A DNA stretch of 64,000 nt from assembly GCA_934141555.1 (NCBI GenBank), contig CAKPCK010000007.1, positions 3,155 to 67,154 of the forward strand, in the 5' to 3' direction. This document shows, in pieces, positions 5,218 to 36,481 of the stretch. Every line of letters starts with the position of its first letter. Position 1 is the first letter of the stretch. A model generated the notes under the pieces. That model made no database searches. It was not told where the DNA came from and saw only the letters and a program-made list of their open reading frames with translations. Source of the DNA: an uncultured Clostridia bacterium. GTDB taxonomy: Bacteria > Bacillota > Clostridia > TANB77 > CAG-508. A program made the translations under genes and the position numbers.

Positions 5218-6891
5218 ATGTTAGTAAATCCTAACAGGTACAAAAGTAAAATGGCATTTGGAAAACGTCAACCAATTGGGGTTGAACTTGTTAAAAGGGG
5301 AATAATTACAGAGGAAGATGTACAAAGAGCTTTATTAGAGCAAAAGAAAAATCCAAATAAAAAACTTGGAGAAATAATTAAAGAAATGGATATATGTGAT
5401 CCTAGAGTATTAATTCAATCAATAGGTGAAATTTTAGGAGTTAAAGGAGTAATTTTAACACCAGAATCAGTTAAAGTTAATATTTTAGATTTTATATCAC
5501 TAGAAATGGCTAAAAAGTATCATGTTGTACCATTTGAAGTTGAAAATGGCAAAGTTAAAGTTTGTTTTTCTGATACAACAAATAAAAGAAATTATGATGC
5601 AATAAAAATGTTAATGTTAAATAGAGGATTACTTATTGATCCATATATTACTTATATATCACTAATAGATAATATATTAAGCAATATTGGTGGAGAAACA
5701 AATGAAAAAAATATGGCTCAAATAGGACAAGAAGAAAATATAACAGAATTAGTTGATTCTATTATAAAAACTGGTATGAAAAAAAGAGCAAGTGATATAC
5801 ATATTGAACCACAAAAAGATGAGATTAGAGTAAGATACAGAATAGATGGTGAATTATTTTTAGCAACAAAAATTTCTAAAGATAAATTACCACAAATAGT
5901 TGGAAGATTAAAAGCAATCTCAAATATGCATCAAGAAAAACAAGAATCACAAGATGGTAGAATTTTGTTATATGATGATTATAATATACGTGTTTCTTCA
6001 CAAAGAAATGTTTGTGGTGAAAAATTTGTATTAAGATTGTTAAAGAAAAATAACTCAATTCAAAGCATATTTGATTTAGGTTATCCAGGGACACCAGAGG
6101 AATTAGACAAAAGCATTGATAAAAGAAATAGTATTACAGTAATAGCTGCACCAACTGGAGAAGGAAAAACAACATCATTATATAGTATGTTAGATTATTT
6201 AAATAAACCAAATATAAATGTTACAACAATTGAAGACCCAGTAGAAATTCGTATACCAGGATTAAACCAAATAGAAGTAGATGCAAAATCAACATTTTCA
6301 GATAATTTGAGAACAATCTTAAGACAAGACCCTGATATTATACTTGTTGGAGAGATCAGAGATAAAGAAACAGCAGAAATTGCTATGCAAGCTGGACAAA
6401 CAGGTCATTATGTATTATCAACAATACATACAATAGATGCAATTGAAGTTATAACTAGATTAAGGAAAATAGGAATATCTGATTATGATATTGCAAGTAC
6501 ATTAGCAACAGCAATTTCTCAAAGACTAGTAAGAAGAGTATGCCCAAATTGTAGAAAAGAAAGAAAATTTAACGATCAAGAGAAAAAGATTATAAATTCT
6601 GTTGCTGAAAAATATAATGTGAAATTTGATTTAGATAAAGCAAAAACATATGATGCTGTAGGTTGTTCAAAGTGTAATAATTCTGGATATGTAGGAAGAA
6701 TTGCAGTTTTTGAAATTCTTAATTTAGATGATGAAGTAAAAGAATTAGTAATGAATGGGGCATCAAGTATTGAAATAAGAAAGAATGCTTTACAAAGAAC
6801 TTATAGACCACTTATAGTTGATGGAATAAGAAAAGTTGTTAATGGAATAACTACTTTAGAAGAATTAAATAGAAAATTAAAAGTTTTTTAA
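5218..6891 (+). CDS. pilB: Type IV pilus assembly ATPase PilB (GspE family)
   Basis: N-terminal GspE_N/MshEN-like domain; ASDIHIEP; Walker A APTGEGKTT; TIEDPVE; Walker B/His box DPDIILVGEIRD...STIHT; tetra-Cys CPNC...CSKC. Confidence 0.9.
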   Translation: MLVNPNRYKSKMAFGKRQPIGVELVKRGIITEEDVQRALLEQKKNPNKKLGEIIKEMDICDPRVLIQSIGEILGVKGVILTPESVKVNILDFISLEMAKKYHVVPFEVENGKVKVCFSDTTNKRNYDAIKMLMLNRGLLIDPYITYISLIDNILSNIGGETNEKNMAQIGQEENITELVDSIIKTGMKKRASDIHIEPQKDEIRVRYRIDGELFLATKISKDKLPQIVGRLKAISNMHQEKQESQDGRILLYDDYNIRVSSQRNVCGEKFVLRLLKKNNSIQSIFDLGYPGTPEELDKSIDKRNSITVIAAPTGEGKTTSLYSMLDYLNKPNINVTTIEDPVEIRIPGLNQIEVDAKSTFSDNLRTILRQDPDIILVGEIRDKETAEIAMQAGQTGHYVLSTIHTIDAIEVITRLRKIGISDYDIASTLATAISQRLVRRVCPNCRKERKFNDQEKKIINSVAEKYNVKFDLDKAKTYDAVGCSKCNNSGYVGRIAVFEILNLDDEVKELVMNGASSIEIRKNALQRTYRPLIVDGIRKVVNGITTLEELNRKLKVF

Positions 6892-32094: not shown

Positions 32095-34035
32095 GTGCCA
32101 GAAATTAATCTGGCATCTAATCAAAATACAATGGAAAAATATTTAAATGATGCAATAATAGGAAATAGAAAAATGCTTGCAACATTTTCAAGCAAAGGAG
32201 AAATGCTAAGATTATCATATCCAAATCATGATAATAGGCAATATTTGAAATATTTTCATACAGGAGTAAAAGTAAATGACTCAAATATAATATATTTGCA
32301 TGATGATATAAACAATACATATATACAATATTATGATAAAGATACAAATATTTTAAATACAGAAATAACAAATACATATTTTAATTTAAAAATAGTTCAA
32401 ACAGATTTTGTAACTATAAAAGAAGATGTATTAGTAAAGAAATATTCATTTATAAATGATAGTAATATAGAACAAGATATAAAATTTTTAATTCATTCAG
32501 AATTATTATCAGACCAAAATAATTTTGTAAGTGGTATGGAATTAGATAATGGAATGATTCAATTTGCCCATGATTTTTCAATGGCAACATTTGCAAAATC
32601 AGAGAAAATATTATCATGTCAGGTAAATGGAACATCAAATAATATAGGAAGCGGAATTATAGGTGGAAAAGATTATGTAGGAATGTCAAAAGATTCAAGT
32701 ATAAGTTTTGATATTGGAAAGCTTAAAGCAGGACATAGAAAAGATATTGAAATATGTATATATATTGATGAAAAACAAAAGACTATGCATGATTTTATTG
32801 ATGAGGTTGAAAGAATAAGAAAAATAGATTTTAATAAAGAATTAAATGATACAAAAGCATATTGGAAAAAATATGTAAAAGAACATGATGGATTAAAAAT
32901 AAAAGAAACACAGAATAGTTATGAAGAAAAAATATTAAATATATATAAAAGAAGTATATTATTATTTCCATTATTAATAAATGAAGAAACAGGTGGGATT
33001 ATTGCATCACCAGAAGTTGATGAAGAATTATCTCAATGTGGAAGATATGGATATTGTTGGCCAAGAGATGCAGTATTTATAACACAAGCTTTAGATATTT
33101 TAAATATGAGTAGTGAAGCAGATAAATTTTATAATAAATTTTGTAGGATGACACAAAGTAAAAATGGAATGTGGGAACAAAGATTTTACACAGATGGAAG
33201 ATTAGCACCTTGTTGGGGATATCAAGTTGATGAAACTGCAAGTGTCGTATATGGAGTGTATAATCATTATGAATATACAAAAAATGAAGAATTTTTGAAA
33301 GAAAATTTACATATGTGTGAACTAGCAATTACATTTTTGAAAAAATATGTATATGATGTATTAGAAGATACGAAAAAATATCATGTAAGTTATGATATTT
33401 GGGAAGAGAATGATAAAGGAATACATATGTATTCTTTGGCAAGTATTTTTTCATCATTTGATACTATGAAAAAAATATATAAAGCATTAGGAAAAAATGT
33501 TTCAGATTTTGAAAACAATAGATTAAAAGAAGAAAAAATAAACAAAAATATTAAAGAAATAGATGAATTAATGTTAAAAGTAAAAGAATATATTGAACAA
33601 AATTTATATGATGAAAATAGAAAATCATATGTAAGAAATACAAAAGATAGAAGAATTGATATAAGTTTACTTGGAGCAGTTTATCCATTTAATGTTTTTT
33701 CACCAAAAGAGAAGAAGATTTTAAACACAATAGAGAATATAAATTTAACACTTAGAACATATACTGGAGGATATCAAAGATATGAAAATGATGGATATAG
33801 AAATGGATCTCCATGGATAATTGCTAATTTATGGATGACATTGTATTATTTAGAAATAGGAGAAAAGAAGAAAGCTAAAGAAACATTTGACTTTGTATTA
33901 AAAACAGTTGGAAAGCATAGTTTATTAGGAGAGCAAATTGATAATTCAACATTAAAACCAAATTGGGTTATTGGATTAGGCTGGTCACATGCGATGTTTA
34001 TTATAGTTTTAGAGAAACTTTTTAATGTGAGATGA
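32095..34035 (+). CDS. Glycoside hydrolase family 15 (glucoamylase/glucodextranase-like)
   Basis: GGIIASPE....RYGYCWPRDAVF and the (alpha/alpha)6 catalytic region pattern (WEE, NLWMT). GTG start after aaggagaaagg. Confidence 0.85.
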   Translation: MPEINLASNQNTMEKYLNDAIIGNRKMLATFSSKGEMLRLSYPNHDNRQYLKYFHTGVKVNDSNIIYLHDDINNTYIQYYDKDTNILNTEITNTYFNLKIVQTDFVTIKEDVLVKKYSFINDSNIEQDIKFLIHSELLSDQNNFVSGMELDNGMIQFAHDFSMATFAKSEKILSCQVNGTSNNIGSGIIGGKDYVGMSKDSSISFDIGKLKAGHRKDIEICIYIDEKQKTMHDFIDEVERIRKIDFNKELNDTKAYWKKYVKEHDGLKIKETQNSYEEKILNIYKRSILLFPLLINEETGGIIASPEVDEELSQCGRYGYCWPRDAVFITQALDILNMSSEADKFYNKFCRMTQSKNGMWEQRFYTDGRLAPCWGYQVDETASVVYGVYNHYEYTKNEEFLKENLHMCELAITFLKKYVYDVLEDTKKYHVSYDIWEENDKGIHMYSLASIFSSFDTMKKIYKALGKNVSDFENNRLKEEKINKNIKEIDELMLKVKEYIEQNLYDENRKSYVRNTKDRRIDISLLGAVYPFNVFSPKEKKILNTIENINLTLRTYTGGYQRYENDGYRNGSPWIIANLWMTLYYLEIGEKKKAKETFDFVLKTVGKHSLLGEQIDNSTLKPNWVIGLGWSHAMFIIVLEKLFNVR

Positions 34036-34048
34036 AAGGAAAAAATAA

Positions 34049-34216
34049 ATGGAACAAAGTAAATGGGTTATTGTAAGAAGAGAAACAGGTTTTGAAAAAT
34101 TTAAAAGAAGTATAAAAAATATATTTTTTAAATTATTTAGGAAAGACAAAGATTTAAAAAAGATGAAGAATAAAGTAAAAAATAGTGGAGAAATAGTAGT
34201 AGAAATTATTTGTTAA
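34049..34216 (+). CDS. Possible small basic protein (55 aa), not in the ORF track
   Basis: ATG at 34049 preceded by aaagga. Translates as MEQSKWVIVRRETGFEKFKRSIKNIFFKLFRKDKDLKKMKNKVKNSGEIVVEIIC, with the stop at 34214-16. The only support is the RBS and the open frame. Confidence 0.3.
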   Translation: MEQSKWVIVRRETGFEKFKRSIKNIFFKLFRKDKDLKKMKNKVKNSGEIVVEIIC

Positions 34217-34247
34217 AAATAAAAAGAATATTAATAATAATAAAAAC

Positions 34248-34277
34248 ACAGCCAGCCGAAAAATTTCAGCTGGCTGT
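34248..34277. terminator. Bidirectional intrinsic terminator between the GH15/small ORF and the GC-rich minus-strand gene
   Basis: 9-bp stem acagccagc/gctggctgt with a 12-nt loop. The A-run at 34242-46 gives a U-tract for the minus transcript. tttt at 34277-80 serves the plus transcript. Confidence 0.7.
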
Positions 34278-34286
34278 TTTGGGTTT
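34277..34286. repeat. Left arm (TTTTGGGTTT) of a perfect 10-bp inverted repeat bracketing the GC-rich gene
   Basis: It is the exact reverse complement of 35483-35492. Confidence 0.6.
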
Positions 34287-34308
34287 GCTAGTGGCTTGCT
34301 CCAAAGTA

Positions 34309-35463
34309 TTACTTCAGAGCATTGACGATGGAAGAGAGGGTCTCAACCATCTTATGGTTGTGGAGCATCTCCTTGATAGAGAAGCCGATAGATTCTGCTT
34401 CTACCAGGGACTTTGCATCCTCGACAGTGAACCCTTTAGCCTCGAGAGCACGGAGCATGTCGCCATACTTGTTCAGCACCTCAACAGTGTGGGTGAGTGC
34501 AGCGACGTTGTTTTCCTGTTTGGAAGCGATGCTGGTGGAATCTTCTTCCTCGGAGGTGTTTGCCTCAGGGGTGGATTCCTTTTCCACAGCGACCTCTTCG
34601 GTGGCAGGTTCTTCAGAAGAAGCACTGTCAGAGGAAGAGACTTCTTCACAGGGGTCGGTCTCGGTGGGCGTGGGCTGTTCCTCATATTTGGGGAAGTCGT
34701 TCGGGTTGAGTCCTTTGAATGGACAGTTGCCACTGGGAATGACTTCCGGAATGGGAGAGGAGGCCTTCAGGGTGCGGATGAGCTTGCCAAGTTCAGGCGC
34801 GATGGTTACCAGGACGGCACGGGTCTGGTCTGCACATTTGACGTTCTTGAGAACATCAGAGATTTCGGCAGGCTTACCGCTCAGGAGATGCTTAGCATCT
34901 TCTTCCGTCATGTAAGACGCGGTCTGACAGGCGATATACCGGACGATGGGGTGCCAGATTTTCTTGGAAATATTATCCAGTTCGGTGGGGCAGTTGTGCA
35001 GGATGTCTGCATCAATTGCACAGAACTGGGGATGTTCCTTCTGGTAACCGTCGAACAAGTAGATAACCAGCTCGGGGATTTCATACTTGCAGATGCTTTC
35101 CTTGCCTTCTGCCTTGGCGGCAGTGAAGCCCAGAATGTTCAGAGACTTTTCCGTTTCGGAAGAGATCTCCTTGGCGGACTTGGTGTCCACATTCATCTTC
35201 AGCAGCAGGCTGAGCACAGCACTGAAATCAGCTCGCTTGTTCCGGCCATCAGCTGGATGAGCGGAGAGGAGCAGATCCAGAGCCTTCTTAAAGGACTCTG
35301 CATTGGTCTTGGGAGATGCAACAACTTCGGAAGGGGCAGCTTCGATAGCTGCGTTGTTTTCAGAAGTGGTGGAGCAGGAAGCAACCTTGGTGGCAGCTTT
35401 CTTCATCAGAGCACTCTGAAAAGCCTTCTTGTTGGCGGCGGACTTGGTGTTATTCTTGGTCAT
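34309..35463 (-). CDS. Orphan 384-aa protein of unknown family, encoded by a compositionally foreign (about 45-60% G+C) gene
   Basis: ATG preceded by ataGGAGGAaactatc. Followed by the terminator at 34248-77. About 21 of the first 30 codons end in G/C (AAG, CTG, ACC, TCC, GCC), whereas neighbouring genes use A/T-ending codons. The opposite-strand ORF translates to G/R/L-rich nonsense. Confidence 0.8.
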   Translation of the reverse strand: MTKNNTKSAANKKAFQSALMKKAATKVASCSTTSENNAAIEAAPSEVVASPKTNAESFKKALDLLLSAHPADGRNKRADFSAVLSLLLKMNVDTKSAKEISSETEKSLNILGFTAAKAEGKESICKYEIPELVIYLFDGYQKEHPQFCAIDADILHNCPTELDNISKKIWHPIVRYIACQTASYMTEEDAKHLLSGKPAEISDVLKNVKCADQTRAVLVTIAPELGKLIRTLKASSPIPEVIPSGNCPFKGLNPNDFPKYEEQPTPTETDPCEEVSSSDSASSEEPATEEVAVEKESTPEANTSEEEDSTSIASKQENNVAALTHTVEVLNKYGDMLRALEAKGFTVEDAKSLVEAESIGFSIKEMLHNHKMVETLSSIVNALK

Positions 35464-35482
35464 GATAGTTTCCTCCTATAAG

Positions 35483-35492
35483 AAACCCAAAA
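35483..35492. repeat. Right arm (AAACCCAAAA) of the 10-bp inverted repeat bracketing the GC-rich gene
   Basis: It is the exact reverse complement of 34277-34286 and lies in the 5' UTR between the promoter and the RBS. Confidence 0.6.
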
Positions 35493-35510
35493 AAAATATA
35501 CGATAAATAT

Positions 35511-35539
35511 ATTATAATATATTTTACATAATTTGTCAA
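35511..35539 (-). promoter_or_regulatory. Perfect consensus SigA-type promoter for the GC-rich gene
   Basis: On the minus strand: TTGACA (35539-35534), a 17-nt spacer aattatgtaaaatatat, then TATAAT (35516-35511). It lies about 45 nt upstream of the ATG. Confidence 0.65.
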
Positions 35540-35582
35540 CATAGGTTAAAGCGATAAAAAGTAACAAAATTTTACAAAATAC

Positions 35583-35611
35583 TTGCAAAAATTTATTGAG
35601 ATTTATATAAT
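35583..35611 (+). promoter_or_regulatory. Divergent promoter for the DUF975 gene
   Basis: TTGCAA (35583-88), 17-nt spacer, TATAAT (35606-11). Confidence 0.5.
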
Positions 35612-35662
35612 AATAATGGTATTATTTATAATATATAATTACAAAAGAAGGGAGGAATAAAA

Positions 35663-36481
35663 ATGGTAGCAACAAACATAAGAAAAGAAGCAAGAGAATC
35701 ATTAAAAGGAAAATGGGGTAAAGCAATTGCAATGCTTTTTATTGAAGCAATAATAATTGGAATAATTAGTGGAATTGAAGGAGCATTAAAAGACAATTCT
35801 ATAATAAAGCCAATAATTTCAATTTTAGAAGTTGTTATACAAGTTCCATTAGCATTTGGGTTGGTATATGCATTTATAAAATTAAAAAGAAATGAAGAAG
35901 TAAATTATTTTGATTTTATAAAAATTGGTTTTGAAAATTTTAGCAGATCTTGGGCAATATGTTTTAGAACATTAATAAAAATGATATTACCAATAATTTG
36001 CATTATTGTAGCATTAATATTAGTTGGAATAATGTTTGCTGTTGGAGGAGTTACTGGAATAGCAATGGGTGCTGGACAACAAGCATTAGGAATAATTATA
36101 TTAGCTATTGCAATATATGTTGCAGCAATAGCATATGCAGTAATTATTGGACTAAAATATGCATTAGCTACATATATAGCTTATGATAATCAAGATATGA
36201 CAGCTAAAGACATAGTTGAAAAAAGTGCTGAATTAATGGTTGGACATAGAGGAGATTTATTTGTATTAGTTTTATCATTTTTAGGATGGGCAATATTATG
36301 TTATGTTCCATTAATGTTAGCATATGCAACTATATTAATAATACCTGCAGCAATTATTTTTGGAATATGCACGGTACTTGCAATATTAGGTTTAGGAGCA
36401 TATGTACAAACATCAAAAGTATGTTTTTATGATGATGTTTTACAATTAAAATCAGAAAAAAATACAGAAATTCAAGAATAG
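35663..36481 (+). CDS. DUF975 family integral membrane protein
   Basis: The N-terminus IRKEARESLKGKWGKAIAMLFI followed by multiple TM helices is typical of DUF975. Confidence 0.8.
   Translation: MVATNIRKEARESLKGKWGKAIAMLFIEAIIIGIISGIEGALKDNSIIKPIISILEVVIQVPLAFGLVYAFIKLKRNEEVNYFDFIKIGFENFSRSWAICFRTLIKMILPIICIIVALILVGIMFAVGGVTGIAMGAGQQALGIIILAIAIYVAAIAYAVIIGLKYALATYIAYDNQDMTAKDIVEKSAELMVGHRGDLFVLVLSFLGWAILCYVPLMLAYATILIIPAAIIFGICTVLAILGLGAYVQTSKVCFYDDVLQLKSEKNTEIQE

What the first reader, a model, noticed from the sequence alone, without database searches (positions are those of the whole stretch)
34277..35492. A perfect 10-bp inverted repeat (TTTTGGGTTT ... AAACCCAAAA) brackets exactly the GC-rich ORF plus its RBS
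34277-34286 (ttttgggttt) is the exact reverse complement of 35483-35492 (aaacccaaaa). The left arm lies between the stop codon and the terminator. The right arm lies between the promoter and the RBS. Two readings are possible. (a) They are terminal inverted repeats of a minimal cassette or MITE-like vehicle that delivered the gene. (b) They are a 5'UTR-3'UTR pairing (UUUUGGGUUU with AAACCCAAAA) that would circularise and stabilise the mRNA. GGG/CCC cores are rare in the intergenic DNA of this window.
Basis: seen in the sequence. Interest (0 to 1): 0.7.

Follow-up and report, generated by a model that had tools for sequence, protein, structure and literature searches.

The report
Orphan GC-rich gene; flanking repeat probably incidental
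The 10-base inverted repeat is really there, but it is not the end of a mobile element: both arms lie in the untranslated ends of one messenger RNA from a stand-alone, unusually GC-rich orphan gene of an uncultured human-gut Clostridia bacterium, and the match is no stronger than chance easily gives.

Summary
The repeat exists as described: TTTTGGGTTT at 34277-34286 and AAACCCAAAA at 35483-35492. It is weak evidence. Shuffled flanks give a match of 10 bases or more in 6% of trials, and 3 of 60 genes in the window have one.

The mobile-cassette reading fails. Two sister species have empty sites, and what they lack is the terminator, the gene and the promoter together (about 34217-35560). Both arms sit 60-70 bp inside that unit. 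There are no other copies, no duplicated target site and no recombinase gene nearby.

The mRNA end-pairing reading stays open. Full-length folding pairs the arms with probability 0.77-1.0 in every lineage tested. But 25-34% of shuffled 3'UTRs pair just as well, and no compensatory change is seen. The left arm is largely the A/U shoulder of a bidirectional terminator.

The real oddity is the gene at 34309-35463 (-). It encodes a 384-aa protein from an orphan family with no recognisable domain or fold. Its codon usage is the reverse of the host's (GC3 0.62 against about 0.10). It evolves fast under purifying selection, and its synonymous GC may be actively maintained.

The parts
34277..34286 (-). 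Left arm. It reads AAACCCAAAA in the mRNA, in the 3'UTR 23-32 nt after the stop codon. Its AAAA is the A-tract next to the terminator stem, which is also the TTTT U-tract for + strand transcripts.
   Evidence: AACCCAAAA is invariant in the 12 distinct 3' flanks that retain the normal terminator context
35483..35492 (-). Right arm. It reads UUUUGGGUUU in the mRNA, in the 5'UTR 5 nt upstream of the SD and about 12 nt after the predicted transcription start.
   Evidence: TGGGTTT is invariant in 19 of the 20 distinct 5' flanks, the exception being the chimeric contig L037
34309..35463 (-). GC-rich CDS encoding a 384-aa all-helical orphan protein. GC is 52% and GC3 is 0.62; dN/dS is 0.23-0.34.
35472..35477 (-). 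Shine-Dalgarno sequence AGGAGG, 8 nt upstream of the ATG
   Evidence: conserved in all relatives
35511..35539 (-). Sigma-70-type promoter TTGACA-17-TATAAT (12/12 consensus); predicted 5'UTR of about 41 nt
34248..34277 (.). Bidirectional intrinsic terminator hairpin (13-bp stem), shared by the GC-rich gene (- strand) and the convergent GH15-orf55 operon (+ strand)
   Evidence: hairpin conserved in relatives
34217..35560 (.). Approximate extent of the unit that is present or absent among sister species: terminator + 3'UTR + CDS + 5'UTR + promoter
   Evidence: alignments of filled against empty sites
34049..34216 (+). Conserved 55-aa ORF convergent with the gene; marks the left edge of the indel
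35583..35611 (+). Divergent promoter of the DUF975 gene. It is retained at empty sites and marks the right edge of the indel.
34210..35481 (+). 423-codon antisense open frame, codon-aligned with the gene. It is a by-product of the gene having no TTA, CTA or TCA codons, not a gene.

Best explanation
The two arms are not a paired element. They are short stretches of the two untranslated ends of one monocistronic mRNA. That mRNA belongs to a self-contained gene unit: a consensus sigma-A-type promoter, a 41-nt 5'UTR with a strong SD, a 384-aa GC-rich orphan CDS, a 31-nt 3'UTR and a bidirectional intrinsic terminator.

The left arm is mostly the A-tract/U-tract shoulder of that terminator plus an adjacent CCC. 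The right arm is a U-rich spacer with a GGG, upstream of the SD. Their 10-nt complementarity is most likely incidental. It is the kind of match that AT-rich flanks give in about 5% of genes, and it is carried along in relatives by shared descent.

Shown: the whole unit, not the repeat-bounded segment, is what is gained or lost between species. Inferred: the transcript ends, and the absence of a function for the pairing.
For: Shuffle P=0.06 for a >=10-nt match. 3 of 60 genes in the window have such a match, and the surrounding 2 kb holds at least six perfect inverted repeats of >=10 nt. TGGGTTT is not enriched in the window, 4 found against 6.8 expected.

Duplex energies are within the shuffle range in most lineages, P=0.02-0.4. 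Of shuffled 3'UTRs, 25-34% pair with the 5'UTR at P>=0.8 in full-length folds, and 3 of 10 non-cognate UTR swaps pair strongly.

In the L001/L010 lineage the 5' U-run is replaced (caaUGGG) with no change on the 3' side, which leaves only 7 bp. The exact 10-mer pair exists only in the window's own species and in one recombinant.

The 3'UTR as a whole is fairly well conserved, so invariance of AACCCAAAA is not exceptional. The AAAA/TTTT part is accounted for by the terminator. Empty sites place the indel edges outside both arms.
Against: By information content this is the strongest flank complement among the 60 genes. GGGTTT is a conserved island between variable 5'UTR segments in seven haplotypes, even though the spacing to the SD changes.

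Full-length folding pairs the arms with P=0.77-1.0 in all lineages. The distant L052 homolog lacks both motifs yet has a different 13-bp complement between its 3'UTR and its SD region, with duplex P about 0.06.
Confidence: 0.5

Rival explanations
1. Functional 5'UTR-3'UTR pairing. UUUUGGGUUU, 5 nt upstream of the SD, pairs with AAACCCAAAA just before the terminator. This closes the mRNA into a loop and limits RNase Y or RNase J1 access to the leader, as in B. subtilis hbs, or modulates initiation.
For: Both arms lie in one predicted transcript. Full-length partition-function folding gives P=0.77-1.0 for the pairing in W, L001, L005, L007 and L012. It gives 0.86 and 0.99 for different complements in the distant homologs L052 and L055. 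The core UGGGUU/AACCCA is invariant in all haplotypes of the clade. In L052 both motifs are lost together. Duplex P is 0.02-0.04 in W, L007 and L012. There is precedent in hbs, a 14-bp 5'/3' UTR helix (PMC5737220), and in icaR (PMC3868564).
Against: Tail probabilities against shuffled 3'UTRs are only 0.09, 0.34 and 0.09; my own Fisher combination of these gives about 0.07. Non-cognate swaps often pair as well. There is no compensatory substitution. The helix shrinks to 7 bp in L001/L010. The position relative to the SD differs between lineages: upstream of it in W, over it in L052. No common mechanism is therefore evident.
Confidence: 0.35
2. Terminal inverted repeats of a minimal mobile cassette or MITE-like vehicle that delivered the ORF and its RBS.
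For: A perfect 10-bp repeat brackets a compositionally foreign ORF. The gene is patchily distributed among sister species.
Against: The empty sites lack the promoter and terminator too, so the indel edges lie about 60 and 70 bp outside the arms. There is no direct repeat flanking the arms. Each arm is unique in the window, and in 63 loci it is found only at the orthologous position. The gene sits at the same chromosomal site in about 50 contigs. There is no transposase or recombinase among the neighbours. There are no homologs in phage, plasmid or IMG/VR collections. The arms shorten to 7-9 nt in relatives.
Confidence: 0.02
3. A DNA-level pair of sites. Either the repeat marks the ends of an invertible segment (a gene-flipping phase switch), or it is two inverted binding sites for one regulator that loops the gene.
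For: The arms are one and the same double-stranded site in inverted orientation. They separate the ORF and RBS from the promoter. The core is conserved.
Against: Every assembled contig has the ORF in the promoter-proximal orientation, apart from one chimeric contig and one rearranged contig. There is no invertase or recombinase gene nearby. Arms of 7-10 bp are short for known invertons (own knowledge). The motif does not recur at other promoters in the window.
Confidence: 0.05

Closest known systems
B. subtilis hbs mRNA 5'/3'-UTR interaction (Braun, Durand and Condon 2017, PMC5737220)
   Same: Firmicute; monocistronic; strongly expressed gene with a strong SD. Complementary stretches lie in the leader and just upstream of the terminator, and would form a long-range helix outside the ORF.
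   Different: hbs has a 14-bp helix that overlaps a mapped RNase Y site, with experimental proof. Here the match is 7-10 bp, no cleavage site is known, the statistics are at chance level, and there is no experiment.
S. aureus icaR 3'UTR-SD pairing (Ruiz de los Mozos et al. 2013, PMC3868564)
   Same: [quoted passage not shown] The distant homolog in L052 does have a 3'UTR stretch (GUGAAAUCCUCAA) complementary to its SD region.
   Different: In the window the pairing lies upstream of the SD and contains no anti-SD motif. icaR has a 3'UTR longer than 100 nt, whereas here it is 31 nt.
MITEs and other TIR-bounded non-autonomous elements
   Same: A short perfect inverted repeat flanks a segment of foreign composition.
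   Different: The repeat is not at the edges of the presence/absence polymorphism. There is a single copy, no target-site duplication, and a fixed chromosomal site.
Horizontally acquired or orphan gene islets with atypical composition (amelioration framework of Lawrence and Ochman; own knowledge)
   Same: A single gene with its own promoter and terminator, composition far from that of the host, and patchy presence among sister species.
   Different: No donor lineage was found among about 15 billion proteins. The promoter is host-like (9% GC). GC3 stays at 0.43-0.62 across lineages whose flanking genes have dS up to 0.7, and older synonymous changes are balanced. That is not what simple decay towards host composition predicts.
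bldA/TTA codon-dependent regulation in Streptomyces (own knowledge)
   Same: A gene enriched in codons that the rest of the genome almost never uses. Here these are CTG, CTC, ACC, TCC and CCC, against near zero in neighbouring genes.
   Different: This is an analogy only. The whole CDS is recoded rather than one codon, and the host tRNA set could not be examined.

Membership tests
TIR-bounded mobile cassette / MITE | The inverted repeats form the termini of the unit that is present or absent | tested here: not met
   The empty sites L049-51 and L057-58 lack about 34217-35560. The arms are internal to this by about 60 and 70 bp.
TIR-bounded mobile cassette / MITE | Target-site duplication flanking the repeats | tested here: not met
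   The sequence outside the arms is CAGCTGGCTG on one side and AAAATATACG on the other; there is no direct repeat.
TIR-bounded mobile cassette / MITE | Multiple copies, or copies at different genomic sites | tested here: not met
   Each arm is unique in the 64-kb window. In 63 loci it is found only at the orthologous position. All close homologs with flanking sequence sit at the same site. A complete genome was not available.
Functional 5'/3'-UTR pairing (hbs / icaR type) | Both arms lie on one transcript | tested here: met
   Met in silico only: consensus promoter and intrinsic terminator predictions. No transcript data were available.
Functional 5'/3'-UTR pairing (hbs / icaR type) | Complementarity stronger than composition-matched controls | tested here: inconclusive
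   Exact-match P is 0.06. Duplex P is 0.02-0.4. Tails for full-length folds are 0.09, 0.34 and 0.09.
Functional 5'/3'-UTR pairing (hbs / icaR type) | Pairing preserved by compensatory changes in relatives | tested here: inconclusive
   The core is invariant and no double changes are seen. Flanking pairs are lost in L001/L010 without compensation. The L052 clade has a different complement.
Functional 5'/3'-UTR pairing (hbs / icaR type) | Overlap with the SD or an RNase site, and a measurable effect on stability or translation | not testable with these tools
   In W the arm ends 5 nt upstream of the SD. RNase sites and expression effects need experiments.
Inverton (invertible DNA switch) | Both orientations present in populations, and a site-specific recombinase | tested here: not met
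   Only one orientation appears in about 50 assembled contigs, and no recombinase is among the neighbours. Read-level data were not examined.
Horizontally acquired gene islet | Atypical composition and patchy distribution among close relatives | tested here: met
   GC is 52% against 25-27%, and GC3 is 0.62 against 0.08-0.16. The gene is present in the W clade and the L052 clade and absent in the L049 and L057 clades.
Horizontally acquired gene islet | Identifiable donor lineage or mobility genes | tested here: not met
   Only 24 representatives were found among 1.84 billion proteins. Every member whose genomic context was examined lies in low-GC gut Clostridia contigs. There are no phage or plasmid hits.

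The most novel reading that the evidence does not exclude
The GC-rich composition of this orphan gene is not an un-decayed relic. It is actively maintained against the host's strong AT mutation pressure. Recent synonymous changes run 38 GC-to-AT against 5 AT-to-GC, while older ones are balanced at 23 against 21. The conserved complementary UTR blocks close the mRNA. Together these would make an insulated transcript, for example one resistant to AU-directed RNases, or one whose translation depends on tRNAs the rest of the genome barely uses.
Probability: 0.15. Interest if true: 0.65.

Novelty: new member of a known kind. Interest (0 to 1): 0.33.

Why it matters
For the repeat itself the value lies in the negative result. 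A neat-looking inverted repeat around a foreign-looking gene is shown, by empty sites, not to be a vehicle for gene delivery.

The gene is the more useful lead. It belongs to a narrow, fast-evolving orphan family of abundant uncultured human-gut Clostridia, and its codon usage is the mirror image of its genome's. If that bias is selected, it offers a natural test case for why a cell would keep one mRNA compositionally foreign. Possible reasons are RNase evasion, dependence on rare tRNAs, or escape from proteins that bind AT-rich nucleic acid. If the UTR helix is real, it would add a third bacterial example of 5'-3' UTR pairing.

Tried and rejected
- **Function of the protein.** Pfam, NCBIfam, PADLOC and PHROGs gave no credible hit. 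A PDB sequence search found nothing. The AlphaFold2 model (pLDDT 62.8, all-helical) gave no Foldseek hit at E<0.08 against either PDB or BFVD. The function remains unknown.
- **Known RNA families.** Rfam found none in 33900-35800.
- **Mobile-element carriage.** There are no homologs in IMG/VR, GenBank phages or PLSDB plasmids.
- **More lineages for covariation.** Three further GH15-ortholog look-ups (L059-L063) landed in genomes with a different downstream context and no homolog. The look-up quota was then exhausted, so UTRs of P0165-P0170 and P0182 could not be fetched.
- **Antisense 423-codon ORF as the true gene.** Rejected. It is codon-aligned with a sense frame that has a strong SD, a coding-type GC1/2/3 pattern, dN/dS of 0.23-0.34 and in-frame indels.
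- **MazF-type ACA avoidance.** Rejected; ACA occurs 17-27 times per CDS.
- **L037 as a second genomic context or donor.** Rejected as a low-coverage chimeric contig.
- **Lactobacillus crispatus 56-aa proteins listed in the P0001 cluster.** Their sequences are unrelated; this is a clustering artefact.
- **A formal pair-count covariation test.** Not run, because the paired core never varies.

Full report
**Observation.** The window carries TTTTGGGTTT at 34277-34286 and its exact reverse complement AAACCCAAAA at 35483-35492. The match cannot be extended, and each 10-mer is unique in the 64 kb.

Between the arms lies a 384-codon ORF on the minus strand (34309-35463). Its SD, AGGAGG, is at 35472-35477. 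Upstream is a 12/12-consensus sigma-70-type promoter, with hexamers spanning 35539 to 35511. Downstream is a 13-bp terminator hairpin at 34248-34277. The ORF is the only stretch of the window above 40% GC: 52% against 25-27%. On the left the GC-rich block runs on through the 3'UTR and terminator to 34248. On the right it decays within the 5'UTR, and the promoter is 9% GC.

**Is the repeat more than chance?** Only marginally.
- Dinucleotide shuffles of the two flanks give an exact inverted match of >=10 nt in 6.1% of trials.
- Among 60 genes in the window, 3 have a >=10-nt complement between their own flanks. This one ranks first by information content, 20.3 bits against 17.2.
- The 2-kb neighbourhood holds at least six perfect inverted repeats of >=10 nt.
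- TGGGTTT is not enriched in the window.
- Intergenic GGG/CCC are not rare: 32 in 4.4 kb.

**What the locus is.** The protein has no Pfam, NCBIfam, PADLOC, PHROG or PDB match. Its AlphaFold2 model has mean pLDDT 62.8. It shows a helical core at residues 55-237, an acidic disordered linker and a C-terminal helical domain. No Foldseek hit has E below 0.08 in either PDB or BFVD.

Homologs are few. There are 44 clusters among 5.8 billion cluster representatives, and 24 representatives among 1.84 billion proteins. All are unnamed. They come from human-gut metagenomes and from MAGs labelled uncultured Clostridia, Clostridiales or Lachnospiraceae.

It is a real coding gene. dN/dS is 0.23-0.34, indels are in frame, and GC1/2/3 is 0.54/0.40/0.62. 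It evolves fast. Its amino-acid identity to relatives is 58-90%, while the adjacent GH15 protein and the RNase J-like (beta-CASP) protein are 93% and 98-99% identical. Its dS is 3-5 times that of the flanking genes.

**Test of reading (a), a mobile cassette.** In about 50 contigs the gene sits at one chromosomal site. It lies between the convergent GH15-orf55 operon and the divergent DUF975 gene, always in the same orientation and with the same promoter and terminator.

Two sister species lack it: L049-51, with GH15 83% identical, and L057-58, at 81%. In both, the orf55-type ORF's stop codon runs within about 10-50 nt into the retained DUF975 promoter region. Alignments A3 and A4 show that the missing unit is about 34217-35560, that is terminator + 3'UTR + CDS + 5'UTR + promoter. 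The arms therefore lie about 60 and 70 bp inside it.

A more distant species (L052/53, GH15 79%) has a very divergent homolog at the same place and on the same strand. It matches P0183, which hits the family profile at E=2.7e-13. This suggests an old gene lost in some lineages.

There is no target-site duplication and no extra copy of either arm. No recombinase gene is nearby. There is no phage, plasmid or IMG/VR homolog. Reading (a) is refuted.

**Test of reading (b), UTR pairing.** Both arms fall within the predicted transcript.

Evidence in favour:
- The core UGGGUU/AACCCA is invariant in the 19 distinct 5' flanks and 12 distinct 3' flanks that retain the normal context. The complement length varies from 7 to 10 nt.
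- Partition-function folding of the full 1.1-1.3-kb mRNAs pairs the 5' motif with the 3'UTR at P=0.77-1.0 in five haplotypes.
- It also pairs other, unrelated complements in the distant homologs L052 (P=0.86, over the SD region) and L055 (P=0.99).

Evidence against:
- Duplex energies beat shuffles only at P=0.02-0.4.
- 3 of 10 non-cognate UTR swaps pair strongly.
- 25-34% of dinucleotide-shuffled 3'UTRs reach P>=0.8. The observed values lie at the 0.09, 0.34 and 0.09 tails; my own Fisher combination gives about 0.07.
- AU-rich ends around a GC-rich CDS tend to find each other in silico in any case.
- No compensatory change exists. In L001/L010 the 5' U-run is lost without a 3' response.
- The exact 10-mer pair is confined to the window's species plus one recombinant.
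- The AAAA/TTTT part of the left arm is the A/U shoulder of a bidirectional terminator.
- The 3'UTR is fairly conserved throughout.

My estimates are about 0.35 that the pairing is functional and about 0.5 that it is incidental. Known precedents are hbs (14 bp, modulating RNase Y cleavage; PMC5737220) and icaR (an anti-SD motif in a long 3'UTR; PMC3868564).

**The larger anomaly.** The codon usage of the CDS is the inverse of the host's.
- It has zero ATA, TTA, AGA, ACA, TCA and CAA codons. Six neighbouring genes use these 129, 127, 66, 83, 47 and 54 times.
- It has 17 CTG, 12 CTC, 19 ACC, 17 TCC and 11 CCC codons. The neighbours use each of these 0-1 times.
- This explains the 423-codon antisense open frame.
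- GC3 is 0.62, 0.57, 0.52 and 0.43 in four lineages, against 0.08-0.12 for almost all flanking genes (one orf55 homolog reaches 0.23). This holds although the flanking genes have diverged to dS of about 0.7.

Parsimony counts at conserved-residue third positions give GC-to-AT against AT-to-GC of 38:5 on terminal branches and 23:21 on internal branches. This pattern is compatible with selection, or biased gene conversion, removing AT-ward changes. The GH15 control shows the opposite skew, which warns of parsimony bias where composition is extreme. This result is suggestive only.

**Verdict.** The repeat is real but ordinary. It is not a transposon end, and its RNA-pairing role is unproven. The gene it flanks is a new, compositionally aberrant orphan gene unit that is present in some sister species and absent in others.

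Noticed in passing
window 34309-35463 (-): Codon usage is the inverse of the host's. GC3 is 0.62 against 0.08-0.16. The host's favourite A-ending codons are absent, and codons the host almost never uses are frequent. The GC-rich block spans 34248 to about 35489, while the promoter is only 9% GC.
   Followed up: partly
GC-gene alleles in the window, L001-L036, L040-L041 and L045-L048 (L037, L043 and L044 excluded): Synonymous third-position changes run 38 GC-to-AT against 5 AT-to-GC on terminal branches, but 23 against 21 on internal branches. This hints that GC3 is maintained by selection or biased gene conversion. The GH15 control is skewed the other way.
   Followed up: partly
window 34210-35481 (+): A 423-codon antisense open frame runs through the whole gene and the terminator. 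It is codon-aligned with the sense frame and is explained by the absence of TTA, CTA and TCA codons.
   Followed up: yes
alignment A1 (P0022-P0033): Several family members carry different in-frame internal deletions in the linker and late core region. Others look like mosaics of two allele types. L012 combines an L005-like 5'UTR and CDS with a W-like 3'UTR. These point to frequent recombination at this locus.
   Followed up: no
window 35663-36481 (+) and 34049-34216 (+): The neighbouring DUF975 membrane protein (68% identity) and the 55-aa ORF (76-85%) also diverge much faster than GH15 (93%) and the RNase J-like protein (98-99%). In L057 the small ORF is expanded to 112 aa.
   Followed up: partly
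L052 7117-7170 and 8167-8215: The distant homolog lacks both GGGTTT and AAACCC. However, its 3'UTR stretch GUGAAAUCCUCAA is complementary to its own SD region UUGAGGAgguaAUUUCAC (duplex -14.0 kcal/mol, shuffle P about 0.06).
   Followed up: partly
L037 612-2849: A low-coverage contig fuses a UvrD/PcrA-like helicase N-terminus in frame to residues from about 57 onward of the family protein. This is most likely a chimeric assembly.
   Followed up: partly
L059 about 6290-6400: Three tandem copies of a 38-nt unit (AAAGCGGTTTTACTGTATCCATTCAAAAACAGGCTTAT) lie in a 780-bp gene-free stretch downstream of GH15 in another species.
   Followed up: no
cluster of P0001: The 90%-identity cluster also lists 55-57-aa Lactobacillus crispatus hypothetical proteins with no visible similarity to the family. 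This appears to be a clustering artefact in the database.
   Followed up: yes
window 34309-35463 (-), sense strand: GGG is the most under-represented trinucleotide in the mRNA-sense CDS across lineages (observed/expected 0.36), and the sense strand has more C than G. The 3'UTR CCC therefore has few competing partners inside the CDS.
   Followed up: no
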